A stretch of 64,000 bases of DNA from Eledone cirrhosa (Eukaryota): assembly GCA_964016885.1 (NCBI GenBank), contig OZ024741.1:379006001-379070000 (forward strand). Reading direction: 5' to 3'. The position numbers and the translations under genes were made by a program. A model generated the notes under the pieces. The model did not search any database. It had not been told where the DNA came from and saw only the letters and a list, made by a program, of their open reading frames with translations. Positions 7,990-64,000 of the stretch are shown one piece after another. Position 1 is the stretch's first letter. Each line of letters starts with the position of its first letter.

Positions 7990-8229
7990 ATGTAACAAAC
8001 AACATAAGGCAATTATTCCATTTACCAGTGGTTTCTTAAAAGTAAAATAATTTGCTTTCAATCCTCAGAATGAAAAAATCCTGGTTTGTTTATTGAATAT
8101 GGATTTTAAAAACAAAAATAAAATCTATATGAAAGTGAAGCTGGAGAAAGAAAAAGGAAAGGAAAAATAAAATAAAACCACACATGCAAACACACACACA
8201 AACATACACACACACACAAAAGCATACAT

Positions 8230-8648: not shown

Positions 8649-9488
8649 AAAATTAGCCGTAGGATTTCTACCTTATCCCCATCTATAGACATTTTCAATA
8701 AAGCCGCCCCTTATGATAATAAAGCCCTTAAGAACAGCGGTTTTACAGAAAAAAAAATGATTACTCACCTACCCCCCCCACCCTAAAACTAACCACAATA
8801 ACAGGAAAAGGAAAATGATTTGGTTCACACAACCTTCGCTCTAACTGTCAAAACTAATGTAGGAAGGAAATTCCTTGAACTCTTAGACAAACATTTTCCT
8901 CCTAATCATAGACATTATAAGATATTTAATAGGAACGTAGTTAAGATCAGTTACTCTTGTTTCCCATCTATGAAGTCCAAGATCACTAGTTCAAATCATA
9001 CGAGAACAAATCCAGGATGCAGTTGCAGGAAGCCGGATGAATGCCCATTGCAGGGTAAATGTAACACCAAATCTGTTGTTTATGAGGCTAAAATAACACC
9101 GCTAATCAACAACCAGCCAGCCAGGAGTGAGCGATATGTCGGTATGACCCAGGACAGTTTTAAAACCAGATTTTACTCACATGTCGCTTCTTTTAAGCAC
9201 TCCGATAAACGAACATCAACGGCCCTCGCAAGTAAGGTGTGGGAATTCAAGGATAGTAACATCCCGTACTCTATCGATTGGTCTATCTGAGACCATTCGA
9301 GGGAGTACCAAAGGGGCACAGAGAATTGTTCTTTGTGTACCACAGAAAAATATAGGATTTTGCTAAACTGAAGATCCGCTTCTGCTTGCCATATCTCAAA
9401 GACTGAGATCTTCAGATATTGTCCTCATCTGAAATCACATCTGATCTGCAACTGGATTGACACTCCTATGATAAATCAACCGCCTTGA
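8645..9488 (+). pseudogene. Penelope-like element (Naiad-like) RT thumb, linker and GIY-YIG endonuclease, 5'-truncated
   Basis: SRRISTLS...ALKNSGF, KTNVGRKFLELLDKHFP, IFNRNVVKISYSC, CSCRKPDECPLQGKC, VVYEA...YVGMT...FKTRFYSH; continues past TGA 9288 as CSLCTTEK...CPH. Confidence 0.9.
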
Positions 9489-14609: not shown

Positions 14610-17600
14610 TTGGAAAAATTAGAACATTGTCGCCTCAAATGGACGCGCAATAATCAAGCCATGATTCGAGCTGAACAGTATGAGGGTTTGTATGATGCTG
14701 CGGCTGAAGGAGATTCAGTAAATGCCGGCCGGAGAATTGTTCTTCCTCCTTCAATCTATGGTTCACCTCGCTTCTACAGTGAGTGCTTTCAGAATTCGAG
14801 GAATGTGTTCGACACATGGGAAAGCCATCTTATTTCATCACGGTAACAACTAACCCTAACTAGGATGAAATAAAAAAATAATTTTCAACCTAGAAACCGT
14901 CGTGATATTTGCGCCAGTATCTTCAAGATCAAGTATGACAGCATCATGGAGGATATACTGAAAATAAATGTCCTAGGAAAAGTTGTGGCTCATTCTGCTA
15001 CAATAGAGTGGCAGAAACGAGGCCTCACTCATGCTCATATTCTGCTGATAATGGCTGAAAATAGCAAACCCAAAACTGCTGATGCCATTGATCAGGAAGT
15101 GTACTGTGAGATTCCTGATAAAGAGACCAATCCAATTCTGTATAAGATCATCACATCCTGCAACATTCATGGCCCATGTGGACAAGTTAATATGATGTGC
15201 CCATGTATGAAAGGGCTAGGACAACAACGCCATTGCTCAAAAAGTTATCCGAAGTCATTCAGACAAACCACATTTCTTGCCAAAAATTCCTTTCCGGAGT
15301 ATAGAAGGGATAGACAGCATGGTGGTCACACCCATACAATCCAACTTAAAGGTCAAGAATTTACTGTTGATAATCGTTGGATTGTTCCATACAACCCTTT
15401 CCTTCATTGAGATATCAGTGCCACAGCAATTTGAGGTTGTCCACAGTGTCAAGTCTGTTAAGTACTTATTTAAGTACACAATGAAAAGATCAGACAAGAT
15501 CACTTACACTATTAAGGATGATCAAAGAAATTGTGTCCATGCCCAAAATGAGATTGAGACCTATATCAATGCATAGAGAATCTATAAATTCCAATTACAT
15601 GATCGACAACTGCCAGTTGGAAATTTGCCTTGCCATTTACCTGGGGAGCAAATGGTCGTGTATGAGCGAGGGCAGGAAGAAAGTAATGTTTCTAGGGGAC
15701 AGCCAATGACTAAGTTGACGGAATATTTTCAACTGAATATTAGAGATCCACTGGCACAAAACATATTGTATATTTATATTTCTAAATATTTCACTTGGAC
15801 AAACAAAAAGTGGCAAAGAAGAAAAGAGGGACATCTGGATGGTGATCAACATTTTATGACTGAATCTCTTGGACGCATTCCAACAGTATCTCTCACTAGA
15901 CATCAATCTAAATTATATTACCTCAGAATGACCCTACATCACAAGACTGGATCAACTTCTTACAAAGAATTGAGGACAATTGAAGGAGTTGAAGTTCCAA
16001 AATTCCAAGAAGCATGCAGGAAAATTGTCTGTTAGATGAAGATGAAGAAAAAGACAAAGCTATGGAAGAGGCCTCATCCATTACGCTTGGTCCTCAGCTG
16101 CGAGAGATCTTCTGCACCATTTTATTGTACTGCATGCCAAATGTCCCTCTGCAGTTCTGGGAGAAATGGAAGATTTGTCTTGCAGAGGATATCATGCATG
16201 AACGTCGTGAACAAATCATGTCCATGCAAACCGTTCAGATTGTTCTACAGAAGAATCAACAAAGACTTCAGCATGATGGTTATTTTTCACAAAGTTATCA
16301 CCTCTGTAAATGAAAATGAAGGCAGAATTTTCTGCTTGAATGCAAGTGCAGGTACAGGAAAGACCTATGTCATAAACATCCTATTGGATTACCTCCGATC
16401 TAAAAAAAAATCGCACTTGCCGCTGCCATATCTGGAATAGCAGCCACTTTGCTTCACAAAGTTATAACTCTTCATTGCATGTGCAAGATTCCTATCAATG
16501 CGACTGCTGTATCAACTTGCTTCTTCACAAAGAGGGATGCCACAGGGACACTTATGCAGCAAGTTGACCTGCTAATCATTGATGAAATGTGTATGGGACA
16601 TAAGCATATATTTGAATGCCTTGACAGTAGCTTAAAATATGTTCAAGATTGCAAAAAACGATTTGGTGGTCTAACTGTATTACTATCTGGTGACTGGAAG
16701 CAAATTCTTCTAGTTGTACGTCATGGTGCTAGACCACAAATAGTTGACGAAACCATCAAGAGATCCTATCTCTGGGACTATGTGGAAACCATGGAGATGA
16801 CAACAAATCAACGGTTAATTAATACAGAGGATTCTTATGAAAGACTGTTTGCAAACTACCTTCTTGGTGTAGGAAATGGTAGCATTCCAACTGTTCCAAA
16901 TGCAGGTGCATTCACAATTCTTCTGCTAAATTAACTTTGTCTGGAATATGGTAATGTGTCTGGCCTGTGTGATTTTGTGTATACAAATCGTCCAGGAAAC
17001 TACACAAACTCACTATGTCTTGCAAATAGAGCCATTATCACTCCAACATATGATGCAGCAAGTTCCCTGGTCATGAAATAATCGACAGAAGCTCTGATAC
17101 CGTAAATAATGACTGCAATATCCAATTGATTTCATCAACAAACTTTCCCCATCAGGATTCCCAACACACATACTTAAACTGAAGAAAGGCAGTTGCATCA
17201 TGTTTCTGAGAAAACTGGATCCTCTAAACGGGCATTGCAATGGTACACGCTACATCATCATCATTAGTTTACAGAATCATGTAATTGAAGCTGAAGTGGG
17301 TCTCAATGCTGGAACAAGGTTGCTAATCCCAAGGATACCACATGTATCTCAAGAACTTGATTTCCATTTCACCTTTACACGCAAGCAATTTCCTGTCAAA
17401 CCAGCCTTTGCCTTTACATGCAACACGACACAATGGCAGACATTTGAAAAGATAGGTGTATATCTACTAACACAATTCTTTTCACATGTTCCAATTTATG
17501 TTGAATTTCACGAGGAACAAAAAAGAAAATATTAAAATATTAAGTGAAAGGGGTCTGTTTGCTGACAACTGTCTACAAAGAAATTCTACAGTGATGGGAA
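14610..17600 (+). pseudogene. Helitron Rep/PIF1-helicase (RepHel), fragmented
   Basis: GSPRFY, EWQKRGLTHAHILL (HUH motif), HGPCG, DNRWIVPYNP, KYLFKY, ASAGTGKTY (Walker A), IIDE, GDWKQIL, CNGTR, RKQFPVKPAFA; many frameshifts. Confidence 0.95.
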
Positions 17601-20012: not shown

Positions 20013-20045
<33 letters not shown>

Positions 20046-20252
20046 AGTATGAAACACGTACATACATATATGTATACCGACGTACAGTAGTATGTATATA
20101 TATATATACATACATGCACACATATATATATGCACGTATGGATTCACCGAATATTTATTATAATGCTCGGTGTGTTTGTAAACAAACATCCCATATTAAG
20201 CCGTAGTGTCTAGCAACCACCGTTGCTCGTTTGTTCAACACTGACAAAGGAA

Positions 20253-20293
20253 TGCTGTACTAGTTTCAAGCTTGTTAGCTATCGTCAGCAACG
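20253..20293 (-). ncRNA. Type I hammerhead ribozyme, 424-bp family, copy 1
   Basis: Minus: CGTTG-CTGACGA-TAGCT-AACA-AGCTT-GAAA-CTAG-TA-CAGCA. Confidence 0.85.
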
Positions 20294-20677
20294 TATACCT
20301 TCCTGCCAGATTGTTGAACGTATATACTTACCTTATGCATATTAACGGCTGAGTAGCCCAATTTGCATATCGAGTGGGTTAATCGGCCGGGTGCACCGAA
20401 AACGATAAACGGAAAAAAATGAAACGATATTTCATTTCCCACTCTTAGTACGGCTGTTACTTAAATATAAGTATGTACACGTACATACATATATGTATAC
20501 CGACGTACAGTAGTATGTATATATATATATATACATACATGCACACATATATATATGCATGTATGGATTCACCGAATATTTATTATAATGATCGGTGTGT
20601 TTGTAAACAAACATCCCGTATTAAGCCGTAGTGTCTAGCAACCACCGTTGCTCGTTTGTTCAACACTGACAAAGGAA

Positions 20678-20718
20678 CGCTGTACTAGTTTCAAGCTTGT
20701 TAGCTATCGTCAGCAATG
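20678..20718 (-). ncRNA. Type I hammerhead ribozyme, 424-bp family, copy 2
   Basis: Minus: CATTG-CTGACGA-TAGCT-AACA-AGCTT-GAAA-CTAG-TA-CAGCG. Confidence 0.85.
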
Positions 20719-21099
20719 TATACCTTCCTGCCAGATTGTTGAACGTATATACTTACCTTATGCATATTAACGGCTGAGTAGCCCAATTTGTATATCGAGT
20801 GGGTTAATCGGCCGGGTGCACCGAAAACGATAAACGGAAAAAATGAAAAGATATTTCATTTCCCACTCTTAGTACGGCTGTTACTTAAATATAACTATGT
20901 ACACGTACATGCATATATGTATACCGACGTACAGTAGTATGTATATATATATATACATACATGCACACATATATATATGCACGTATGGATTCACCGAATA
21001 TTTATTATAATGATCGGTGTGTTTGTAAACAAACATCCCGTATTAAGCCGTAGTGTCTAGCAACCACCGTTGCTCGTTTGTTCAACACTGACAAAGGAA

Positions 21100-21140
21100 C
21101 GCTGTACTAGTTTCAAACTTGTTAGCTATCGTCAGCAACG
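21100..21140 (-). ncRNA. Type I hammerhead ribozyme, 424-bp family, copy 3
   Basis: Minus: CGTTG-CTGACGA-TAGCT-AACA-AGTTT-GAAA-CTAG-TA-CAGCG (G-U wobble in stem II). Confidence 0.85.
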
Positions 21141-21492
21141 TATACCTTCCTGCCAGATTGTTGAACGTATATACTTACCTTATGCATATTAACGGCTGAG
21201 TAGCCCAATTTGCATATCGAGTGGGTTAATCGGCCGGGTGCACCGAAAACGATAAACGGAAAAAAATGACACTACGGCTTAATACGGGATGTTCGTTTAC
21301 AAACAAACCGAGCATTATAATAAATATTCGGTGAATCCATACGTGCATATATATATGTGTGCATGTATGTATATATATATATATACATACTACTGTACGT
21401 CGGTATACATATATGTATGTACATGTACATACTTATATTTAAGTAACAGCCGTAGTAAGAGTGGGAAATGAAATATCGTTTCATTTTTTTCC

Positions 21493-36799: not shown

Positions 36800-37610
36800 G
36801 ACTCAGTTTCTAGCGTGTTCATATGGTACCGAACCGTCTTTCTTTTCCTTTTTCTTCCCCCATTGTTGGTCTGTGATGACACACATATCAGGGGACATTT
36901 GAATTATTGGGCGTATAATCGTAGAGAGGAAGTAGGAGATCCTGTAGTTACTGGCGATATTCGCTTCGCATACAGGTCTTGTTGGTGGTCCAGCTGTAGA
37001 GTTGTTAATTGTCTTATGGTCTTTGCGGAGTCCATATAAGTGTGGTATGTCATTGTTAGAGGCTTGGAAATGATTGGCTGTGCGTCCACTTGGTTTTAGG
37101 ATGTCGCTCCACATCATCATGTGAGCATTGAGGATCTTTTCTCTTTCCTCATATGCCTGTAGTGTTCTTTCACTCGTCTTGACATTGTGGGGTTGCATAG
37201 CCTTGATGTAGTTTGGCATGCTGTCTATTGACATCCTACAGTATTGTCTGTTGGTAGACAAACTACCTCACCATCCCTCTGCCCTGCATGAGGCTAAATA
37301 GGTCTTCTGGAGTTTTTCTTCCAATTTGTTGATTCCTGGTCTGTTTTGTCTCCTAGTGTATTGTTCTATTACGTGTCAAATTTTCTTTCTGCTTATGGTA
37401 AACTGAGCCACCGGTTGTAAGTTTATATGTTGTGGCATAAAACCCCTTTTATTAAATGGTAATTTGGTGGCGAGAATGTTGTTCATCTTGAATGATTTGT
37501 CAGCTGGGATTAAGAACAGGTTCTCTAATAGGATGCCATTAAACCTACCGTTAAAATTGTGTGTACGATTATTATTGTCATTATAGGTGTTGTTTTCGCT
37601 ACTGTTAACG
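36800..37610 (-). pseudogene. Penelope-like element RT N-terminal fragment
   Basis: IPHLYGLRKDHK...GPPTRPVC...ISYFLSTIIRP (PLE K.HK/RP motifs). Confidence 0.75.
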
Positions 37611-37618
37611 TTATATAT

Positions 37619-37678
<60 letters not shown>

Positions 37679-37733
37679 CGTTAACAGTAGCGACAGAAAC
37701 ATCTATAATGAAAATAATATATATATATATATA

Positions 37734-37768
<35 letters not shown>

Positions 37769-38017
37769 GAAAGGTATAGAAAACATTGTAGCAAAAAGCC
37801 AACAGTATTCCATAATATATAAGTGACTATAGCGTCAAAATGGGAAAAATAGTTAACGTAAGATGTGGGAAAAATAAATCAAACTCATCTCAACGAGAAT
37901 CGGGATATAGATTCATCCACAGAATTTAGTGAAATCCAGGGAAAAATCAATAGAGCATTAACTCATGATAAAATAAAGTTTAAAATACTCATCCATCAAT
38001 TTGGAAAAACCTCAAAT

Positions 38018-38097
38018 GCTCTGTATAGTCTTACAGACTATTTCACGAAAACTTTCAGTGGAGATGGTCACGGTTAGAATCCGATCCTCAGCAGAGC
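38018..38097 (-). ncRNA. Type I hammerhead ribozyme, 640-bp family, copy 1
   Basis: Minus: GCTCTG-CTGAGGA-TCGGA...TTCGT-GAAA-TAGTC-TGTAA-GACTA-TA-CAGAGC; 6-bp stem I, stable stem III, AUA triplet. Confidence 0.8.
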
Positions 38098-38657
38098 TCA
38101 ACTCGATAACGAAAATTCTCACAGATTAATATACCAAAAAGGGAATTTAAAACCGGCTAGTTCACCATCATGCGTGATTATGAAAAATAAAACGCACATG
38201 TGGAAGGACAGGGCTGGTGACGTCAGAATGAGACGAATGTTTGTTTACAAGAAACAACAGTCAAAAAACATTCCGAAAAAAAACTCTACAATAAGGAGTC
38301 CAGCAAAAAGCAATATTATCGCGGTTTTTTATAAAAAAAAAATAAACGGGATTAGGCACAAATAATTTATGCACTCTAGGAAAGAAATCCGAGTAAAAAT
38401 ATATAAATGAAAGGTATAGAAAACAATGTAGTAAAAAGCCAACAGTATTCCATAATATATAAATGATTATAGCCTCAAAATGTGAAAAATAGTTAACGCA
38501 AGACGTGGGAAAAATAAATCAAACTCATCTCAAAGAGAATCAGGATATAGATTCATCCAAAGAATTTAGTGAAATCCAGGGAAAAATCAATAGAGCCTTA
38601 ACTCATGATAAAATAAAGTTTAAAATACTCATCCTTCAATTTGGAAAAACTTCAAAT

Positions 38658-38737
38658 GCTCTGTATAGTCTTAAAGACTATTTCACGAAAACTTTCAGTG
38701 GAGATTGTCACGGTTGGAATTCGATCCTCAGGAGAGC
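38658..38737 (-). ncRNA. Type I hammerhead ribozyme, 640-bp family, copy 2
   Basis: Same core; C-C mismatch at the first pair of stem I. Confidence 0.65.
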
Positions 38738-39296
38738 TCAACTCGATAACCAAAATGCTCACAGATTAATATGCCACAAAGGGAATTTAAAACTGGCTAG
38801 TTCACCATCTTGCGTGATTATGAAAAATAAAACCCATATGTGGAAGGACAGGTCTGGTGACGTCAGAATGAGACGAGTGTTTGTTTACAAGAAACAACAG
38901 TCAAAAAACATTCCGAAAAAGAACTCTACAATAAGGGGTTCAGCAAAAAGCAATATTATCGCGGTTTTTTATTTAAAAAATATACCGGGATTAGTCACAA
39001 ATAATTTAAGCACTCTAGGAAAGAAATCCGAGTAAAAAAATATAAATGAAAGCTATAGAAAACATTGTAGCAAAAAGCCAACAGTATTCCATAATCTATA
39101 AGTGATTATAGCGTCAAAATGGGAAAAATAGTTAACGTAAGACGTGGGAAAAATAAATCAAACTCATCTCAAAGAGAATCAGGATATAGATTCATCCACA
39201 GAATTTAATGAAATCCAGGGAAAAATCAATAGAGCCTTAACTCATGATAAAATAAAGTTTAAAATACTCATCCTTCAATTTGGAAAAACTTCAAAT

Positions 39297-39376
39297 GTTC
39301 TGTATAGTCTTAAAGACTATTTCACGTAAACTTTCAGTGGAGATGGTCACGGTTCGAATTCGATCCTCAGGAGAGC
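39297..39376 (-). ncRNA. Type I hammerhead ribozyme, 640-bp family, copy 3
   Basis: Same core; additional stem I and II mismatches. Confidence 0.55.
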
Positions 39377-39752
39377 TTAACTCGATAACCAAAATTCTCA
39401 CAGATTAATTTGCAGCAAAGGGAATTTAAAACAGGCTAGTTCACTATCATGCCTGATTATGAAAAATAAAACCCACATGTGGAAGGACAGGTCTGGTGAC
39501 GTAAGAATGAGACGAACGTTTGTTTACAAGAAACAACAGTCAAAAAACATTCCGAAAAAGAACTCTACAATAAGGAGTTCAGCAAAAAGCAATATTATCG
39601 CGGTTTTTTATAAGAAAAATGCCGGGATTAGTCACAAATAATTTAAGCACTCTAGGAAAAAAATTCGAGTATAAATATATAAATGAAAGGTCTAGAAAAC
39701 ATTGTAGCAAAAAGCCAACAGTATTCCATAATATATAAGTGACTATAGCGTC

Positions 39753-39786
<34 letters not shown>

Positions 39787-41511: not shown

Positions 41512-42017
41512 TATAAAGAATTAGTATATCTGCCAACTAGTTCATAGTAACAGTCCGGCTGCTGTCTTCTTAAGAAACGACTCTACACTGATTGACTTCG
41601 ATGTCACGTGATTGATTCTTTTGAATTTACCACCGACGCAGTAGGCAGTGATTTTGTCAATGGCTTGGAACTTAGTCCACGCTTTGCTTCTTTCCATCCA
41701 CTGAATTATTTTTGTATAAGTTCCCTGTGTCCACGTATTGCCTGGAAACTTAGCTGAAAATAGACTTCCCTGGTGACGAAAGGCTTCTCCGTACGTTTCT
41801 TCGAAAACTATGTTTATTCCCTTTCAGAAACTAATTAGTTGGAGTGAAATTTTAGTAAGTAAGTTAATTTTTATAATTTTCTTATTTTACGTCTCTCATA
41901 TTATTGTTCTGCATCCCCATGCATTGAACCACAAAGTTACTAAGACAAAACCTATATATTTGCTGGCATAGGTATGCATCTGTATATATATGTTGGCAGA
42001 TATACTAATTCTTTATA
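41512..42017. repeat. ~500-bp segment bounded by perfect 26-bp inverted repeats
   Basis: TATAAAGAATTAGTATATCTGCCAAC (41512-41537) and reverse complement (41992-42017). Confidence 0.8.
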
Positions 42018-42029
42018 TATATATATACA

Positions 42030-43725
42030 ACTCGCCCTGAAGAACCTACGGAATTGGGAACTTATATACTTACCATCCGACAAAGGTAAAGAGTCTTGCG
42101 TCATCTCTCAAGCCACATACAATAACCTAGCCTTAAAACGCCTAAGCGACAATGAATTATACACAGAGATCCCGGACATGACTGCAGCCCAGATCGAAAA
42201 ACAGAACAACTCCATTTGGTTCGATATCTGTAGGAGAAGACAACTCCCAAATAAAATTAAGCTCAACTACACCACTAGAAATAGCAGACTGCCCACTTTC
42301 TACCACCTCATCAAGACCCACAAGAATAGTACTAAGACGCAAATAAGACCCATCGTCTCTAGCATAGAAGGACCCCTATACACAATTTCCTGGCTCCTCT
42401 CCCAGGTCCTCAAGCCTCTACTCTCCACCTTTCCCGCGCATGTCAGTAGCTCCGACGAAGTTATACGTAGACTACACCAACTCTAGCCAGAACAACTTAA
42501 ACTAAATAAATACGCTTTTAGCCTAGACGTTGTTTCCCCCTACACGACAGTACCCGCTCATCCAGCTGTCGATTTATTGACGGACTGCGTGGTCGCAGAG
42601 GACATCCACTGCTACGGCCTCCACCCGACGGACATACACCAGCTTTTGTCCTTCACAGTAGACAACAGGTACTTCACCTTCCACCATCACACATACAGAC
42701 AGACAACAGGATTACCCATGGGATCCAGCCTATCGGGCCTGCTGGCCATCACCTACATGAACCAGCTAGAATGCCGAACCCTCAACACCTGCCATTCCCA
42801 TGCCTTCTTCACCCGATATGTAGATTACATACGCATCCTTACATCATCCCGTGAGGAGGCAGATAAAATATACACAACATTCTCCAGCATGGACGCCAGT
42901 ATAAAGTTCAGCATGGAACACCCCGATGACCGGGGATCCCTATCCCTACTGGACTTCCAACTCAGGGTAACAGAGGAAGGCAACATCCACACTTGCTTCA
43001 ATAAAAAAGCCGCCAGCAGGGACCTGTTCGTACATTTCAGATCGGCCCTCCCACTCGGGGCCAAGTTCGGATACATAAGGAACGAACTGGCACGTATCCG
43101 GAACAAATGCACCGACGCTAGAGACCGAGACGCACACACCACACATTTCCTGGAAGTACTCAAACTGAACGGATACACGAGATCCACCACAAACCGTGCC
43201 AGAAAGAACAGAGGACACCACACCCGAGGCACTAACACTTGCTTCCTGAAGCTCCCACACTTCAGTGAAGAAACAACAACAGCCATCTGCAGAGCCATCA
43301 GACGAGAGGGACTAGATATCCAACTGGCCCACTCAGGTCCTTCTCTACGCGGACAGCTAACCAAAAGACACTCCACCAGACATGGCAACTGCTGCAGACT
43401 AGCCAACTGCCCCATCAACGACACAGACCTCTGCCACCAGGCTTACGTCGTATACAGGCTGGAGTGTGACAAATGCAACAACTTCTACGTAGGTAGCACC
43501 ATCTGACCACTCCACATAAGAATAAAAGAACACCTCAATACTAACGCTTCCTCATTTAAGAAACACCTAGTTAAATGCAAAAACACCGACAAAACCATAA
43601 CAGTTAGGATAGAAACTAAGGAAAGAAACCTCGGCAAACTTAGAATTAAGGAAGCACTAATTATAGATAAAACACAACCACCAATCAATAATAGACTAGA
43701 AGTCAACACCCAATTTATAACCTGA
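42030..43725 (+). pseudogene. Penelope-like element (Nematis-like) RT and GIY-YIG, 5'-truncated
   Basis: LPSDKG, FYHLIKTHK...IRPIVS, SLDVVS, GLPMGSSLSG, TRYVDY, VVYRLECDKCNNFYVGSTI*PLHIRIKEH...IKEALII...IN. Confidence 0.92.
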
Positions 43726-44123
43726 TAGGGCTTCTAGCCCCATATTTACACACACCCCACACATACACACGCACGCGCACACACACGCACGCTTACACCT
43801 CCACTTATTCTCTCTCACACATACACACACAAAACCAGTTCTAACACCAGTTAACACCTATCCCCCACATTTACGAATAGACTTATCTTCTCATACTCAC
43901 ACACACACACACTCACATACTTACACTTTCATGCATTCTCCCACACACTTAAACAGGCATGTATATAAAAAAAACAAAAAAACCCTAAACAAACCCCTTT
44001 TAAAGGGAGACTACTCTTTATCCACCTAATTTTAACTCTTTGACATTAGAGATAGAACAGATACTCTATACTATTTCCTGTCAGCATGGCTTGGCAAGAT
44101 ATTTAGAACGCTGGTTTGAGACC

Positions 44124-44179
44124 TTTATTTCACTCTGAAGAAGAGATATTATCTCGAAAATTTAGGACATTTAAATAAA
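44124..44179 (+). ncRNA. Probable hammerhead ribozyme in the pLTR of the upstream PLE
   Basis: CTGAAGA-A-GAGAT-ATT-ATCTC-GAAA with good stem II; stems I and III weak. Confidence 0.5.
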
Positions 44180-44286
44180 TCTAAGGTAAAAGACGATTTG
44201 TCAACAATATCTTTTGCAATTGCATTCTTTTTTTTTTATCTCTGTCCATACCTGCATTGTTTTGGCTTTATTATACATATTCAAAC

Positions 44287-44331
<45 letters not shown>

Positions 44332-47900: not shown

Positions 47901-47902
<2 letters not shown>

Positions 47903-50900
47903 TGGAATAAATGCTCTGAAATAGCGATATATATGTGAATATAGACATAGAATATTCGAAAATATTCTGTATGTTTATAATAAACATTTTGAAGACCTAA
48001 TCGCTATAGAATAGAATACGTCACGTATTACAATTAGATTCTCGATAAAAGCAAGGGAAGTAATCTACGCGTTTCATTCTTGTTAGAAATCATCAGGACT
48101 ACATATCCAGTGCTTTTATCGAGAATGACACAGCTAGAGACTTATAGAATACTTAGCTGTGTACAGGAACTGGTTTGAAAGAGCGGTTGCCGGTCCGGCA
48201 GAAATTAGAAATTGGAATAAATGCTCTGAAATAGCGATATATATGTGAATATAGACATAGAATATTCGAAAATATTCTGTATGTTTATAATAAACATTTT
48301 GAAGACCTAATCGCTATAGAATAGAATACGTCACGTATTACAATTAGATTCTCGATAAAAGCAAGGGAAGTAATCTACGCGTTTCATTCTTGTTAGAAAT
48401 CATCAGGACTACATATCCAGTGCTTTTATCGAGAATGACACAGCTAGAGACTTATAGAATACTTAGCTGTGTACAGGAACTGGTTTGAAAGAGCGGTTGC
48501 CGGTCCGGCAGAAATTAGAAATTGGAATAAATGCTCTGAAATAGCGATATATATGTGAATATAGACATAGAATATTCGAAAATATTCTGTATGTTTATAA
48601 TAAACATTTTGAAGACCTAATCGCTATAGAATAGAATACGTCACGTATTACAATTAGATTCTCGATAAAAGCAAGGGAAGTAATCTACGCGTTTCATTCT
48701 TGTTAGAAATCATCAGGACTACATATCCAGTGCTTTTATCGAGAATGACACAGCTAGAGACTTATAGAATACTTAGCTGTGTACAGGAACTGGTTTGAAA
48801 GAGCGGTTGCCGGTCCGGCAGAAATTAGAAATTGGAATAAATGCTCTGAAATAGCGATATATATGTGAATATAGACATAGAATATTCGAAAATATTCTGT
48901 ATGTTTATAATAAACATTTTGAAGACCTAATCGCTATAGAATAGAATACGTCACGTATTACAATTAGATTCTCGATAAAAGCAAGGGAAGTAATCTACGC
49001 GTTTCATTCTTGTTAGAAATCATCAGGACTACATATCCAGTGCTTTTATCGAGAATGACACAGCTAGAGACTTATAGAATACTTAGCTGTGTACAGGAAC
49101 TGGTTTGAAAGAGCGGTTGCCGGTCCGGCAGAAATTAGAAATTGGAATAAATGCTCTGAAATAGCGATATATATGTGAATATAGACATAGAATATTCGAA
49201 AATATTCTGTATGTTTATAATAAACATTTTGAAGACCTAATCGCTATAGAATAGAATACGTCACGTATTACAATTAGATTCTCGATAAAAGCAAGGGAAG
49301 TAATCTACGCGTTTCATTCTTGTTAGAAATCATCAGGACTACATATCCAGTGCTTTTATCGAGAATGACACAGCTAGAGACTTATAGAATACTTAGCTGT
49401 GTACAGGAACTGGTTTGAAAGAGCGGTTGCCGGTCCGGCAGAAATTAGAAATTGGAATAAATGCTCTGAAATAGCGATATATATGTGAATATAGACATAG
49501 AATATTCGAAAATATTCTGTATGTTTATAATAAACATTTTGAAGACCTAATCGCTATAGAATAGAATACGTCACGTATTACAATTAGATTCTCGATGAAA
49601 GCAAGGGAAGTAATCTACGCGTTTCATTCTTGTTAGAAATCATCAGGACTACATATCCAGTGCTTTTATCGAGAATGACACAGCTAGAGACTTATAGAAT
49701 ACTTAGCTGTGTACAGGAACTGGTTTGAAAGAGCGGTTGCCGGTCCGGCAGAAATTAGAAATTGGAATAAATGCTCTGAAATAGCGATATATATGTGAAT
49801 ATAGACATAGAATATTCGAAAATATTCTGTATGTTTATAATAAACATTTTGAAGACCTAATCGCTATAGAATAGAATACGTCACGTATTACAATTAGATT
49901 CTCGATAAAAGCAAGGGAAGTAATCTACGCGTTTCATTCTTGTTAGAAATCATCAGGAACATATCCAGTGCTTTTATCGAGAATGACACAGCTAGAGACT
50001 TATAGAATACTTAGCTGTGTACAGGAACTGGTTTGAAAGAGCGGTTGCCGGTCCGGCAGAAATTAGAAATTGGAATAAATGCTCTTAAATAGCGATATAT
50101 ATGTGAATATAGACATAGAATATTCGAAAATATTCTGTATGTTTATAATAAACATTTTGAAGACCTAATCGCTATAGAATAGAATACGTCACGTATTACA
50201 ATTAGATTCTCGATAAAAGCAAGGGAAGTAATCTACGCGTTTCATTCTTGTTAGAAATCATCAGGACTACATATCCAGTGCTTTTATCGAGAATGACACA
50301 GCTAGAGACTTATAGAATACTTAGCTGTGTACAGGAACTGGTTTGAAAGAGCGGTTGCCGGTCCGGCAGAAATTAGAAATTGGAATAAATGCTCTGAAAT
50401 AGCGATATATATGTGAATATAGACATAGAATATTCGAAAATATTCTGTATGTTTATAATAAACATTTTGAAGACCTAATCGCTATAGAATAGAATACGTC
50501 ACGTATTACAATTAGATTCTCGATAAAAGCAAGGGAAGTAATCTACGCGTTTCATTCTTGTTAGAAATCATCAGGACTACATATCCAGTGCTTTTATCGA
50601 GAATGACACAGCTAGAGACTTATAGAATACTTAGCTGTGTACAGGAACTGGTTTGAAAGAGCGGTTGCCGGTCCGGCAGAAATTAGAAATTGGAATAAAT
50701 GCTCTGAAATAGCGATATATATGTGAATATAGACATAGAATATTCGAAAACTTTCTGTATGTTTATAATAAACATTTTGAAGACCTAATCGCTATAGAAT
50801 AGAATACGTCACGTATTACAATTAGATTCTCGATGAAAGCAAGGGAAGTAATCTACGCGTTTCATTCTTGTTAGAAATCATCAGGACTACATATCCAGTG

Positions 50901-51416
50901 CTTTTATCGAGAATGACACAGCTAGAGACTTATAGAATACTTAGCTGTGTCCAGGAACTGGTTTGAAAGAGCGGTTGCCGGTCCGGCAGAAATTAGAAAT
51001 TGGAATAAATGCTCTGAAATAGCGATATATATGTGAATATAGACATAGAATATTCGAAAATATTCTGTATGTTTATAATAAACATTTTGAAGACCTAATC
51101 GCTATAGAATAGAATACGTCACGTATTACAATTAGATTCTCGATAAAAGCAAGGGAAGTAATCTACGCGTTTCATTCTTGTTAGAAATCATCAGGACTAC
51201 ATATCCAGTGCTTTTATCGAGAATGACACAGCTAGAGACTTATAGAATACTTAGCTGTGTACAGGAACTGGTTTGAAAGAGCGGTTGCCGGTCCGGCAGA
51301 AATTAGAAATTGGAATAAATGCTCTGAAATAGCGATATATATGTGAATATAGACATAGAATATTCGAAAATATTCTGTATGTTTATAATAAACATTTTGA
51401 AGACCTAATCGCTATA
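47901..51416 (-). mobile_element. Retrozyme-like tandem array, 310-bp unit, 11 full copies plus ~107-bp partial
   Basis: Unit starts 47901, 48211, 48521, 48831, 49141, 49451, 49761, 50069, 50379, 50689, 50999, 51309; near-identical; one minus-strand HHR per unit; no ORF. Confidence 0.9.
48038..48126 (-). ncRNA. Type I hammerhead ribozyme, 310-bp family (first of 11 copies)
   Basis: Minus core 48102-48060: GTAGTC-CTGATGA-TTTCT-AACA-AGAAT-GAAA-CGCG-TA-GATTAC; stem I extended by 16-bp ATTCTCGATAAAAGCA/TGCTTTTATCGAGAAT. Confidence 0.9.
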
Positions 51417-59484: not shown

Positions 59485-59541
59485 GTTTTGATTTCCCTGA
59501 TGAGTCCTTAATAGGACGAAACATTGTCGGCTAATAAAAAC
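59485..59541 (+). ncRNA. Type I hammerhead ribozyme, canonical core
   Basis: GTTTTGATTTCC-CTGATGA-GTCCT-TAAT-AGGAC-GAAA-CATTG-TC-GGCTAATAAAAAC; GUC triplet. Confidence 0.85.
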
Positions 59542-59711
59542 TTTTGATGTATTAAAGGATTCTTTGTTTTACTCTCTTAATATATATAATATATATATAT
59601 ATTTATAAATAATATATATATATAATAGAAACATTTGAACAGGAACAAAACAGAGAGGCAGTACAACGAATGTTTATTAATTTCACGCTCTGGAGAGTTG
59701 GGTGGTGGTAG

Positions 59712-59749
59712 GGAACGACGTTTCGGGCATAAGCCCTTCCTCAGGTGAG
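59712..59749 (-). ncRNA. Minimal type I hammerhead ribozyme in Neptune-like pLTR
   Basis: Minus: AC-CTGAGGA-A-GGGC-TTAT-GCCC-GAAA-CG-TC-GT; palindromic ACGT stem III; stem I weak. Confidence 0.75.
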
Positions 59750-61178
59750 AAGTGTGTGGGAACAGAGTTCAAAGGGTGTGTAGGGGAGTGGTGGAGAGAC
59801 ATATAGCGAAAGGTAACGGTGCAAATGAAATTAAAAATAAAAATAAAGCATGATCAAAATAAAAGGAATGAAATAAAAATAAATATAAAGGCATGATCAA
59901 AATAAACTGAAATTAAAAAGGGGTAAAACAGGTGGTGGAAGGGTGTGGGGTGTATAGGGGTGGTGGCGGGTGGAGTGGGGAGAGGGAGACGGGGTGTCCG
60001 AGCGGGGAGGGCTGAAGATGGTGTGTGTGTGTATGTGAAAGTAAGGGTTGGGGGAAGAACGGGGTTGCACGTTCAGGAAGAGGTGTGTGGGGGGGGGGGG
60101 GTTTGTAGGTCGGAGTGTCTGTGGGTGTGTGGTTAGAGGGGTGGGCGGAGAGGAATCAGGAGGCGGAGGGTGTAAATATGTGATGGAAAGCACGTGTGTG
60201 TGGGGTTTAAGCGTGTTGTGGGTGTAGGTGGCGTGTGGGAGAAAAAACATTTTTGGGGTGTGTGTGTGGGTGAGTTATATAGGTGATTCCGTAAGAGGAT
60301 GGTTGAAATGTTGGTAAATTCCTATGATGTTTAGTAGATTCCGTGGTGGTCAAGTTCCACATACGAGTATTCCATGAAGAGATGGTAGGAAGAGGAGAGA
60401 TGTGGGGTGCGCGCGCAACAGGAAGTGGTCAAGCGGTGGGAGTGATGTGTGTCTGTTTGTGCTGGGAGGTGGTCAGTGGGCATAGCAGCAGTCAGGTTGA
60501 ATGGTAAAGGGGCGAGGATGGCTAGGTGTGTAAGTTGGAGTGAGGAGGGTGTGTGTGTGTATTAGTAGAGGTGTTAGTGGGATGAGTGAGTGTGAAGCGA
60601 GGGTGTGGGTGGAGCGGGGAGAGAAGGGTGTGTGTAGTTATATGGAGGGAGTGGGGTGTACTGGTGTGTGTGTAGTTTGATGAAAGGGGTGTTAGTATAC
60701 GGGAGGTGGGGAAAGTTTTGAATGCAGGTGTGAGTGGGGGTTAGTGGTGGTAGGGTGTGTAGAGTTGGTGGTGTACGAGGGTGTGTGGGTACGTGTGCGT
60801 GGGGTTGGGGGTGTTAGTGATGTTAGTTGAGTGTGGGGTTGGTGGTGTAAGTGTGTTCCTGTGCTAGGGGTCAGGGGGTGTTAGTGGGGTTAGTTGCGGG
60901 GTGGTGGGATGGAGGTTTGGGGGTAAGGGTTAGTGGTGGTAGTTGGGTGTGTGTTTAGTGTGAGCGCGTGTATATATGTGCCGTGGGTGTGTGCGTGTGA
61001 TGAGGATGGGGGGGGGGAGAAGAAGGGAGGGATGTTAGTATGTTAGTTGGGGAAGGGTGGTCGGATGAGGGGTGGAGTGGAGGTGTTAGTATTGTTAGTT
61101 GTCGGGTGGGCGGTGAAAAGGAGGGGTGTGTTAGTGGTTTTAGTGGGTGATAAGTGTGTGGGAGGGGGCGGTCGAAGG

Positions 61179-63930
61179 CTAAAGGAATAAGGGTGGGGAG
61201 TTCAGGCCAGGGGGAGTGTGGGTCTGAAAGATGAAGATAGTTCTTTCTTCAACTCTAAGGCGATTGGCGGGTGCTCCGTGGCATTGGAGTAGGCCACAGA
61301 CTGTGAGATGGCGTGCGGAATGTCCAGGGCCACCAAAGTGGCGGGCGATGGGGGAACTACCACCGAGACGAATATCCCTGAGGTGCTCAGTAAATCGGTC
61401 CCGCGGGCGACGTCGCGTCTGTCCGACATAAGTCGTAGACGAAGTCCGTAGACTAGGTTGGAGGAGGTGCAGCGGAAGGCATGCCGGACAGAGAGAGAGT
61501 GACCGTTGGGACCCTGGAAGGTGGTGGTGTTGGTGATGTGGGGACAGGTGTTGCAGCGGGGCCTAGAACAGGGAAAGGAACCGGGGGGGGGGGGGGGGGG
61601 CACAGAGCGTGGATTGGGGGGTAGGGAGCTGTGGACGAGGAGGGTGCAGAGATTGCGTGCGCGTTTGAAGGAGGGGAGTGGTGGGGTTGGGAAGATGTGG
61701 AAGGTGGAGTGGTCGGACTGGAGGCGTCGGAAGAGGCGGCGGATGGTGCGGTGGAGGAGTAAGGTGGAGGGGTGGTAGGTGCTGGGGAAGGGGAGACGGT
61801 GGGTGGGTGTGCGGTGGCGTGGGCTGAGGTTGGTGGAGCGGTGGACAGCACGGGCGCGGGTGAGAGCGGTGTGGACGGGGGGGGGGTAACCTCTGCTGAT
61901 GAGATGAAATGGCCAACTAGGGAAAGGGCCTGGGACTCGAAGTCACCATCTTCGCTACAGAGGCGGCGGATCCTGAGGAGTTGGGAGTAGGGAATGGAGT
62001 GTTTAGTGTGGGTGGGGTGGGAAGAGGTGAAGTCGAGGTAAGAGTGGGAGTCGGTGGGTTTGAAGAAGGCGGAGGTGACGAGGGAGTGGTGGGAGGGGTC
62101 GAAGGAGATGTCTAAGAATTGGACGTGGGTGGTGGAGATAGAGGTGGTGAAGTGGAGGGTGGGGTGGAAGGAGCAGAAGAAGGAGAGAAAGGAGTCGAGC
62201 TGTTCTCAGGTGAGGGTCGTGGCTCCGATACAGTCGTCAATGTAACGACCGTACAGTCCGGGCGTGGGGCCGGTGTATTGGGCAAATATTTGGGCATCAA
62301 CATGGCCAACAAAAAGGTTGGCAAAGTTCGGGCCCATTCTTGTACCCATGGCTAACCCCGTGACCTGTTGGTAAAACTCACCCGAGAAGGAGAAACAATT
62401 GAGGGTGAGGACCAGCTCGGCGAGGCGAAGGAGGGTGGGGGTGGATGGAATGGGGGAGGGGCTAAGGTCGAGGTAGTGTTTGAGGGCGCGTAGGCCGTCG
62501 GCGTGGGGGATGACGGTATAGAGGGATTTGATGTCTAGGGTGAAGAGGAAGGGCTGTGGGCCGGGTGGGTAGGTGAAGGAGTCGAAAAGGCGCAGGGCGT
62601 GGTTGGTGTCGGAGATGTGGGAGGGGAGGAAGGTGACAACGGGGGCGAGGATAGAGTCGAGAAAGGCGGAGATGAGTTCGGTGGGACAGTTGCAAGCGGA
62701 GACGATGGGGCGGCCGGGGTTGTCGGGTTTGTGGAGTTTGGGGAGGAAGTAGATGGTGGGGGTGCAGGGGGTGCGGACGATGAGGTGGGAAGCTGTGGGG
62801 GGAGGGAGGGAGGAGGCGATAAGGTCTTGGTTGGTGGAGGAGACTTGTTGTGGGTAGAGGTGGGTGGGATCAGAGGGAAGAGGGCGGTAGAAGAGGGGGT
62901 TACAGAGCTGCCTGAGGGCTTCGGCCGTGTAGAGGTCCGCGCGCCACACCACCACGGCGCCTCCCTTGTCCGCCGGTTTGATGACGATGTCATCCCGGCT
63001 ACGGAGGGATCGGAGAGCGAGGAGTTCGCCCCGTGAGATATTGTACCGTTTGGAACGGTGGCGAAAGTCGAAACGATTTACTGCGCTATGGCTGGCATCG
63101 ACGAACGCGTCCATGGTGCTAAATTGCCCTGGGGCCGGCGTCGAAGAACATAGTCGTCGGCCCAGGGCGAGAAACGGGTCTGGGGCGTCCGGAGCCGGTG
63201 GCGTTCGGCCGAAATGTGCCTGTAGCTTAGTGCGTCGCACGAATCGCTCGACTTCCGTTCGGGTGCGGAACTCGTCGCTGTGCGGAGTGTGAGGTATGAA
63301 GCGAAGGCCTCTACTAAGGAGTGAGCGCTCAGGTGCGGAGAGAGGGAGGTCAGGGGGTATGGTGACAACACGTGGTGGGGTTTGGCTGTGTGGGGGGAAG
63401 GGAGGCGTTGTGAGGGGTGAGGTGGAGGGTGGAGATTGGGTAGGGGTGTGGGTCGAGGGATGGGTGGAGAGTGGTGGGCGTATGGGGATAGGCGGGTGGT
63501 GGTGGATGGGGGTGGTTGGTAGGAGTGAGTGTAGATTGCGGGCCTTGGTGGAGCTGAGGAAGGAGAAGACGTTGTGGTTGAGGTTTTGGATGAAGGAGAG
63601 GATGGCTTGGGCGAGGAGGGGGTGGCAGCTGGAGTTAAGGCGGAGGAGGGTGGGGGTCAGTTGGTGGTCAAGTTGGCGGAGGGTGGAACGGGAGGCGCGG
63701 ATGGAGTTGCGTATCAGGAGGCGTAAGGATCGGGTGAGGATACGTTGCGTGGAGGGTGAAGCGGCGGGGGAAGGGTGGAAGTGTAGACGGAAGCCGAGGG
63801 GGATAAGGTGGAGGCGGAGGCAGTGGCTAAGGAAATGGATGTGGCTGGAGTGCCGAGATTTGGCGAAGAGACGGTAGGAGAGTTGAAGGGCAGAGTGGGA
63901 GGAGGGGGGTGAGGAAAAGTTTGAAGCGAT
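61179..63930 (-). pseudogene. Neptune-like PLE RT and GIY-YIG polyprotein, frameshifted
   Basis: VIKPADKGGAVVVW, IYFLPKLHK...PGRPIVS, LDIKSLYT, GLAMGTRMGPNFANLF, YGRYIDD, GSFPCSRPRCNTCPHI, FRCTSSNLVY, TPPGLN. Confidence 0.92.
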
Positions 63931-64000
63931 TATATAGTTGGTGGAGAAAGGATGTCAGGCTGGGCATGAGGGGCGTTGGTTGAAAGCAGGGGGAGGGATG

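What the first reader, a model, noticed from the sequence alone, without database searches (positions are those of the whole stretch)
37761..39754. Third HHR tandem family (~640 bp) with stable stem III and enlarged stem II
Seen: each unit has minus-strand CUGAGGA...GAAA with a 6-7 bp stem III hairpin (AUAGUC/GACUAU), AUA site and a 40-nt stem II region; array ends in a partial terminal redundancy with TA tracts on both sides. The stable stem III should allow monomeric cleavage, unlike the other two families, and the unit is longer than typical animal retrozymes (roughly 150-400 nt). Only unit 1 has a perfect stem I. The plus-strand ORFs are not conserved between units.
Basis: partly seen in the sequence, partly recalled or inferred. 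Interest (0 to 1): 0.8.

Follow-up and report, generated by a model that had tools for sequence, protein, structure and literature searches.

The report
Hammerhead retrozyme with built-in off-switch helix
This 635-base non-coding repeat sits in over a thousand copies in the TA microsatellites of an animal genome and carries a conserved hammerhead RNA motif that is predicted to cut itself; it was likely spread by Penelope-like retrotransposon enzymes, and such elements (retrozymes) are known, but here the motif's long loop can pair with the sequence just upstream, which would switch cutting off or tune it.

Summary
In detail: 3.1 head-to-tail ~637-bp units on the minus strand, each with a type I hammerhead motif, between TA tracts. 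The family has at least 1,200 units genome-wide in six subfamilies, a fixed 3' end (TTCATTT|ATAT), variable 5' truncation and occasional 5' inversions. This is the Penelope-like (PLE) insertion pattern. An intact Hydra-clade PLE in the genome shares that 3' terminus only. The ribozyme looks selected: N7 is the only freely varying core base, and stem I has a compensatory G-C to A-U change. The 'enlarged stem II' is a 3-5 bp helix with a ~30-nt loop that is complementary to the ~27 nt upstream of stem I in all six subfamilies. That helix is predicted to out-compete the active fold; no subfamily-level double-sided covariation supports it. Three independent deletions end at the predicted cleavage site (two exactly), including a ribozyme-less unit found at two loci. 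This is indirect evidence of in vivo cleavage and rejoining. No RNA data. Verdict: a new structural variant of metazoan non-LTR retrozymes. This scan noted long-stem-II retrozymes in other genomes earlier.

The parts
37765..39757 (-). Whole insertion: 3 full units plus a ~80-bp 5'-truncated partial unit; RNA sense is the minus strand, fixed 3' end at 37765
37765..38401 (-). Unit 1 (3'-most), the only one with all six stem I pairs; 20 substitutions from the subfamily consensus
38405..39040 (-). Unit 2; C.C at the first pair of stem I; shares 5 locus-private substitutions with unit 3
39044..39677 (-). Unit 3; stem I and stem II further damaged
39681..39757 (-). 5'-truncated partial unit (the terminal redundancy)
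38018..38097 (-). Type I hammerhead of unit 1: stem I 38097-38092 with 38023-38018, core CUGAGGA 38091-38085, stem II region 38084-38045, GAAA 38044-38041, stem III 38041-38025, predicted cut between 38024 and 38023
38098..38124 (-). 5' tail of stem I, complementary to the loop of stem II (helix P; predicted off-conformer or pseudoknot)
38658..38764 (-). Hammerhead plus tail of unit 2 (predicted cut 38664/38663)
39297..39403 (-). Hammerhead plus tail of unit 3 (predicted cut 39303/39302)
37719..37764 (.). TA tract at the fixed 3' end (target microsatellite)
39756..39783 (.). TA tract at the truncated 5' end

Best explanation
The array is one insertion of a non-coding repeat family of over a thousand copies whose conserved type I hammerhead likely cuts tandem transcripts into monomers that are likely joined into circles and likely copied into TA microsatellites by a Penelope-like (probably Hydra-clade) reverse transcriptase/endonuclease. 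Shown: copy number, fixed 3' end, variable 5' truncation, more-than-unit insertions, and conservation of core and stems. Inferred steps: (1) read-through transcription of an array; (2) cleavage at AUA, leaving 5'-CAGAGC; (3) ligation to a ~635-nt circle, by RtcB as shown in vitro for other retrozymes; (4) in the circle, loop II pairs with the 5' tail of stem I (helix P) and holds the ribozyme off, while a shorter part of P may serve as the stem I-stem II pseudoknot in the active fold; (5) the PLE protein nicks (TA)n and starts reverse transcription internally at UUCAUUU-AUA, 259 nt downstream of the cut site, running past the ligated site to give 1.0 to 3 or more units. Odds by step: selected ribozyme 0.9, PLE mobilisation 0.9, Hydra partner 0.6, circle as main template 0.55, functional helix P 0.45.
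For: Copies: 3,321 first-look candidates; 1,202 exact matches to a 16-nt stem I-core pattern; 1,298 to a 27-nt pattern; reversed-pattern controls 0. Polarity: 30 of 32 partial matches end at the same terminus; 100 of 116 distinct downstream ends lie in the last 10 nt of the consensus, 97 of those before an AT run; 5' inversions in L004 and L048. Selection: in 121 units N7 is G 55, U 60, C 5, A 1, while the other 11 core bases are kept in at least 114; the first stem I pair is G-C in subfamilies A and C and A-U in 50 of 52 B copies; stem III is 100% paired in 25 sequences of six subfamilies. Cleavage-site fossils: a 62-nt deletion joins the core's CU directly to CAGAGC with no microhomology, in three units at two loci; a 4-nt blunt deletion ends at the same base (L163); a 35-nt deletion is compatible with it (L025, 2-nt microhomology). 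About 0.14 blunt events were expected, and a control site had 0 internal deletions among 4 hits. 5' ends do not pile up at the cut site (5 of 24 listed loci, 3 of them by TATA microhomology), as they would with a linear cleaved template. Partner: 714-715 aa Hydra-like ORFs without stops (named by eye against Hydra-1_Obim), and several of their pLTR copies end in TTCATTT followed by an AT or AC run. Helix P: -17.9 to -21.5 kcal/mol in six subfamilies, reached by 0-3 of 300 shuffles, best site in the unit; paired tail columns 94% identical against 68% for unpaired.
Against: No RNA evidence was obtainable. The active fold is not the predicted minimum in context: stem I probability is 0.05 or less in the circular monomer (pseudoknots and tertiary contacts are not modelled). 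The 10.1-11.1 pair is U.U, A-U or A.C depending on subfamily. Helix P has no double-sided change across subfamilies and is broken at one pair each in A, E and G, so it may be the relic of an inverted duplication. Units 2 and 3 of this locus share 5 private substitutions that unit 1 lacks, which one pass round one circle cannot give. A ribozyme-less unit reached two loci. No significant alignment exists between the unit and the Hydra pLTR (best score reached by 18-156 of 200 shuffles). For an Anolis PLE, cleavage was not needed for insertion in vitro (PMC11167929), and only 1 of 9 Xenopus retrozyme dimers cleaved in vitro. The 62-nt deletion was noticed before the test was designed.
Confidence: 0.7

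Rival explanations
1. It is a non-autonomous PLE whose template is mainly the uncleaved read-through transcript of older tandem arrays. The hammerhead is real but is a low-activity passenger inherited from a pLTR, and circles are rare by-products.
For: Hierarchical sharing of private substitutions inside arrays (window units 2 and 3; L011; L016). In two of these arrays the shared changes damage the ribozyme. The ribozyme-less unit spread to two loci. Helix P is predicted to suppress the active fold. Unprocessed RNA was the dominant substrate for an Anolis PLE.
Against: Core and stems stayed intact, with a compensatory change, over 9-16% divergence between subfamily consensuses, so master lineages need the ribozyme. 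Deletions end at the cut site. Later local duplication can also explain the shared substitutions.
Confidence: 0.22
2. It is a DNA-level repeat (satellite or Helitron-like rolling-circle element), and the hammerhead-like motif is chance or a dead relic.
For: Rfam does not score it; the isolated fold is not unusual; Helitron-type elements also give fixed 3' ends and tandems (recalled); some arrays grew locally.
Against: The variation pattern follows hammerhead rules. There is no CTRR 3' end (recalled Helitron hallmark; the end is CATTT). Copies show 5' inversions and TA targeting, and share a terminus with a PLE.
Confidence: 0.05
3. The plus strand is the functional one and encodes, or descends from, a small protein such as a GIY-YIG fragment.
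For: A 143-codon stop-free frame in the subfamily A consensus.
Against: It has no early start codon. There are 15 stop variants and a non-synonymous/synonymous ratio of 0.71 among copies. Pfam gave no match. The only hit among 1.84 billion representatives is a 16-fold repetitive protein matched over 27 residues. Insertion polarity marks the minus strand as the RNA.
Confidence: 0.03

Closest known systems
Metazoan non-LTR retrozymes (Cervera and de la Pena 2020, PMC7229834, passages read; Li, Clavereau and Pollet 2026, bioRxiv 10.64898/2026.07.22.740005, parts 1-3 of 5 read)
   Same: Non-coding, low-GC head-to-tail repeats with one type I hammerhead per unit, dispersed as monomers to multimers, proposed to be moved by PLEs; a U.U base of helix II is described for axolotl HHR_Amex2; length falls in the 51-972 bp range.
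   Different: 6-7 bp stem III instead of the 1-2 bp palindromic one; a ~30-nt loop II complementary to the 5' tail of stem I; genomic deletions ending at the cut site; no expression or cleavage shown here.
Hydra-clade Penelope-like elements (Craig et al. 2021, PMC8557442, passages and supplement look-ups)
   Same: (TA)n targets, fixed 3' end with 5' truncation and inversion; a U-CG...CG-U-GAAA stem II base is seen in two Hydra sequences of the supplement; the 3' terminus TTCATTT is shared with the Hydra-like PLE of this genome.
   Different: No ORF; no significant alignment to that PLE's pLTR; its hammerhead has a self-contained 26-nt stem II hairpin and a short stem III.
Hammerheads stabilised by a stem I-stem II pseudoknot (Perreault et al. 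2011, PMC3088659, passages read)
   Same: Base pairing between the loop of one stem and the tail of the other; U10.1-U11.1 tolerated.
   Different: The pseudoknots in the passages read are 4-6 bp. Here the complementarity runs to 15-19 bp, which by geometry (my inference) cannot all form together with stem II, so it looks like an alternative conformer as well.
'HHR_half_core' motifs in Naiad PLE 3' UTRs (Craig et al. 2021)
   Same: Core halves 35-50 nt apart, missed by standard descriptors.
   Different: Short motifs of this family were not found in that supplement; here all three stems can be assigned.

Membership tests
Type I hammerhead ribozyme | Core CUGANGA, GAAA and NUH, with only N7 free | tested here: met
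   11 core bases kept in at least 114 of 121 units; N7 takes all four bases
Type I hammerhead ribozyme | Three helices, stem I open | tested here: met
   stem I 98% paired with one compensatory pair, stem III 100%, stem II 3-5 bp
Type I hammerhead ribozyme | Usual purine-pyrimidine pair 10.1-11.1 | tested here: inconclusive
   U.U in subfamilies A, E, F; A-U in B, C; A.C in G. U.U is a published, active variant
Type I hammerhead ribozyme | Stem I-stem II tertiary contact | tested here: inconclusive
   tail-loop complementarity conserved, without double-sided covariation
Type I hammerhead ribozyme | Site-specific self-cleavage | not testable with these tools
   only indirect: deletions ending at the site
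Metazoan non-LTR retrozyme | Non-coding tandem units, each with a type I hammerhead | tested here: met
Metazoan non-LTR retrozyme | Dispersed, many-copy family without LTR, PBS or PPT architecture | tested here: met
   ends are a fixed 3' terminus and variable 5' truncation; PBS and PPT were not searched for separately
Metazoan non-LTR retrozyme | Expressed as linear and circular monomers | not testable with these tools
   no RNA holder listed
Non-autonomous PLE | Fixed 3' end, 5' truncation, partial tandems, 5' inversions, microsatellite target | tested here: met
Non-autonomous PLE | Sequence homology to the pLTR of an autonomous PLE | tested here: inconclusive
   only a 7-10 nt shared terminus with one Hydra-like family; the wider alignment is not significant; other PLE families of the genome were not surveyed
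Helitron-like element | 3' CTRR terminus (recalled) | tested here: not met
   3' end is CATTT before the TA run

The most novel reading that the evidence does not exclude
A retrozyme whose hammerhead carries its own conformational switch: the enlarged loop II pairs with the 5' tail of stem I, partly as an activating pseudoknot and fully as an off state that protects the circle. The genome keeps fossils of cleaved, 3'-trimmed and re-joined RNAs, among them a 566-nt ribozyme-less unit copied to two loci. This would be direct genomic evidence that cleaved and ligated retrozyme RNA is the template of Hydra-clade PLE reverse transcription.
Probability: 0.35. Interest if true: 0.72.

Novelty: new variant of a known kind. 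Interest (0 to 1): 0.52.

Why it matters
Whether hammerhead cleavage and circles are really part of PLE and retrozyme transposition is open: in vitro an Anolis PLE inserts uncleaved RNA, and most tested frog retrozymes did not cleave. This family offers two handles. Deletion junctions at the cut site can be counted genome-wide as a fossil record of cleavage and rejoining. A monomer-type hammerhead with a candidate inhibitory helix can be tested with simple mutants and would explain how a circle avoids cutting itself. Standard hammerhead models miss the motif, so such families are probably under-counted. The class itself is known, which caps the interest.

Tried and rejected
Rfam scan at gathering threshold: one hit elsewhere in the window, none here. 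An alternative parse using the first GAAA gives poor stems I and II. An inner GUG/CAC hairpin in loop II was first taken as conserved structure; it is 3 bp and overlaps helix P, so it was dropped. The plus-strand ORF was rejected. Sequencing runs: no RNA holder listed; the three contig sets laid are one sample and gave only DNA-type variation and the lead to the 62-nt deletion; their depths were not used as copy numbers. Metagenome pattern scan: 0 hits. Short family motifs are absent from the Craig 2021 supplement. A possible vestige of the Hydra pLTR near unit positions 149-220 is not significant. A 5' truncation pile-up at the cut site was looked for and not found. The 'B fully intact 0 of 52' line is an artefact of a 1-nt gap and was not used; 8 B-like copies were misfiled under A in that call. 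Literature searches for an alternative conformation, a pseudoknot, or cut-site deletions in retrozymes returned 0, 1 (not read) and 0 papers. A hammerhead-cephalopod-Penelope search listed 2. The library lacks most subscription papers, bioRxiv supplements were closed and the supplements of PMC7229834 were not opened, so similar motifs may be in print.

Full report
Observation. The window holds three head-to-tail units of about 637 bp (37765-39677) and a 5'-truncated fourth piece to 39757, 93-94% identical, between TA tracts. On the minus strand each unit has CUGAGGA, 40 nt, GAAA, a 6-7 bp stem III and an AUA triplet. Only unit 1 has all six stem I pairs. Rfam does not score the motif and the isolated fold is unremarkable against shuffles, so the case rests on the family.

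Family and polarity. The host is an animal genome of 3.0 Gb; I did not identify it. A DNA search gave 3,321 first-look candidates, of which 39 were scored. Exact patterns count 1,202 and 1,298 units, with 0 in reversed controls. Of 32 partial matches, 30 end at the same terminus. In a census of fetched loci, 100 of 116 distinct downstream ends lie in the last 10 nt of the consensus and 97 of those are followed by an AT run; 8 more stop within about 30 nt. 5' ends vary, and two loci have 5' inversions. This is the pattern described for Penelope-like elements (Craig et al. 2021, passages) and marks the minus strand as the RNA. Fetched loci were the best-scoring ones, so they lean to long, young copies.

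The ribozyme is selected. The consensus of 39 subfamily A units has a perfect stem I and copies are about 2% from it. Further searches gave subfamilies B and C (consensus identities A/B 85%, A/C 91%, B/C 84%). Forty loci picked from the listing added E, F and G (labels are mine, from the hammerhead flanks; 10 of 110 segments were left unassigned). In 121 distinct units N7 is G 55, U 60, C 5, A 1, and each of the other 11 core bases is kept in at least 114. The first pair of stem I is G-C in A and C and A-U in 50 of 52 B copies. In an alignment of 26 copies chosen from the six groups, stem III is 100% paired and stem I 98%. Pair 10.1-11.1 is U.U, A-U or A.C. A U.U base is a published, active variant (axolotl HHR_Amex2, PMC7229834 passages; Perreault et al. 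2011 passages), and the two other tandem families of this window have it too.

What the enlarged stem II is. It folds on itself to only -4.2 kcal/mol: a 3-5 bp helix with a loop of about 30 nt. With 30 nt or more of native flank, stems I and II lose their predicted probability because loop II pairs with the ~27 nt upstream of stem I, in three blocks (helix P). The duplex is -17.9 to -21.5 kcal/mol in all six subfamily consensuses, is reached by 0-3 of 300 shuffled tails, and is the best site for that loop in the whole unit. The free fold lies 2.6-9.8 kcal/mol below the enforced active fold. In circular monomers of A and C the middle block has probability 0.80 and 0.62 and stem I 0.05 or less. 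Paired tail columns are 94% identical against 68% for unpaired ones. Against it: no pair of P changes on both sides across subfamilies. Compatible one-sided changes (G-C to G.U in B, U.G to C-G in C) stand beside one broken pair each in A, E and G; one copy, L180, has A-U at the G-C/G.U pair. Stem I-stem II pseudoknots are common in hammerheads, but the full helix could not coexist with stem II, since only about 5 nt link its far end back (my geometric inference). I read the proximal blocks as a possible pseudoknot and the full helix as an off state. An origin by inverted duplication without function is not excluded.

Traces of cleavage. Contigs laid on the array showed a joint across the ribozyme. 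It comes from a subfamily C variant in which the core's first two bases are joined to the first base after the predicted cut, with no microhomology. It occurs twice in a 1.7-mer on C1 and once in a 1.2-mer on C4; the two loci share no private substitutions. A genome-wide pattern for altered sequence just before the cut gave 5 hits: these three units, one 5' truncation, and an independent 4-nt blunt deletion ending at the same base. A 35-nt deletion in L025 is compatible with the site within a 2-nt microhomology, and a unit in L011 stutters over the ~15 nt just after it. The background of 13 distinct blunt deletions in 67,296 aligned bases predicts about 0.14 such events among 1,298 units. One control position gave 4 hits and no internal deletion. 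The first event was seen before the test and only one control was run, so this is suggestive. It fits a monomer cut at this site, trimmed at its 3' end and rejoined by a ligase or a template jump. 5' ends do not pile up at the cut: 5 of 24 loci in the 100 of 229 rows listed, 3 of them explained by TATA microhomology, against 3-4 at other microhomology sites (counted by eye). The usual template is therefore continuous across the site: a circle or an uncleaved multimer.

Circle or multimer. The circular consensus folds better than shuffles (z -4.2, 40 shuffles). However, units 2 and 3 of this locus share 5 private substitutions absent from unit 1, including the stem I break, and L011 and L016 show similar nesting. 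This needs a multimeric template or later local duplication. Frangieh et al. 2024 (part 1 of 4 and passages) found internal initiation of reverse transcription, which explains a fixed end 259 nt from the cut site, but also that cleavage was not needed in vitro. Li et al. 2026 (parts 1-3 of 5) saw cleavage in 1 of 9 dimers. RtcB circularised other retrozyme monomers in vitro. No RNA could be examined.

Partner. A PLE endonuclease fragment at window 8802-9450 belongs to a large family (50,539 candidates) with stop-free frames of 714-715 aa in five of six fetched loci. It resembles Hydra-1_Obim in the Craig supplement by eye. Several of its pLTR copies end in TTCATTT followed by an AT or AC run, the same terminus as this family, whereas three other elements seen here end differently. 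Beyond this there is no significant alignment. A relaxed pattern found 770 further hammerheads with the same stem II base (7 in controls). Among them are a pLTR-like family with a 40-nt self-contained hairpin, related to the Hydra pLTR, and a 526-bp tandem family with a 50-nt stem II. Long stems II are thus common in this genome; the tail-pairing loop is what sets this family apart (tail duplexes of those families are -4 to -10 kcal/mol in 4 copies).

Coding. The plus strand of the A consensus has a 143-codon open frame without an early start. Variants among copies include 15 stops, Pfam is blank, and the one remote hit is a repeat artefact.

Verdict. It is a real member of the metazoan non-LTR retrozyme class on every feature that could be tested, with cleavage and circles untested. 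Length and U.U base are not new. The loop II-tail helix and the cut-site deletions were not found in my literature searches, which cover open papers only; Cervera and de la Pena 2014 was read in parts 1-2 of 4. Earlier notes of this scan describe long-stem-II retrozymes in other genomes and Hydra-type hammerheads in this one; no look-alike of this unit was on record. Novelty: new variant of a known kind. Interest 0.52.

Noticed in passing
window 20041-21269 and 47901-51416: The other two tandem families (422 and 310 bp) have minus-strand hammerheads with a U.U-based short stem II and palindromic stem III (dimer type), resembling Hydra-clade motifs.
   Followed up: partly
window 8802-9450 (+); hammerheads at 8068 (-) and 11493 (+): Hydra-like PLE endonuclease fragment; the family has intact 714-715 aa ORFs elsewhere and a hammerhead with a 26-nt stem II.
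   Followed up: yes
L164, L167-L169, L171, L172, L174 and others: Abundant short elements related to the Hydra pLTR, with a 40-nt hairpin stem II, mostly inserted as head-to-head inverted pairs in TA tracts.
   Followed up: partly
L165, L166, L170, L181: A 526-bp tandem family with a 50-nt stem II, U.U base and palindromic stem III; another candidate retrozyme.
   Followed up: no
window 41944-44290 (+) and 59625-63954 (-): Two further degenerate PLE-like copies with their own hammerheads (cores near 44136 and 59745); clade names not tested.
   Followed up: no
window 54400, 54562, 55121: Hammerheads with a 31-nt stem II in inverted arrangement inside long TA tracts.
   Followed up: no
window 59491-59535 (+): Canonical type I hammerhead, the only Rfam hit in the window.
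   Followed up: no
window 14874-16934 (+): Broken ORFs resembling a Helitron Rep/helicase (recalled resemblance, not tested).
   Followed up: no
window 36803-37720: RT-like fragment (36803-37267, minus; no Pfam hit) and two facing copies of a short terminus around the TA/CA tract at 37595-37720, next to the array but a different element.
   Followed up: no
unit positions ~149-183 (window ~38219-38250): GTAAACA and TGACGTCA motifs (recalled as forkhead- and CRE-type sites), largely kept in subfamilies A-C; a possible internal promoter, untested.
   Followed up: no
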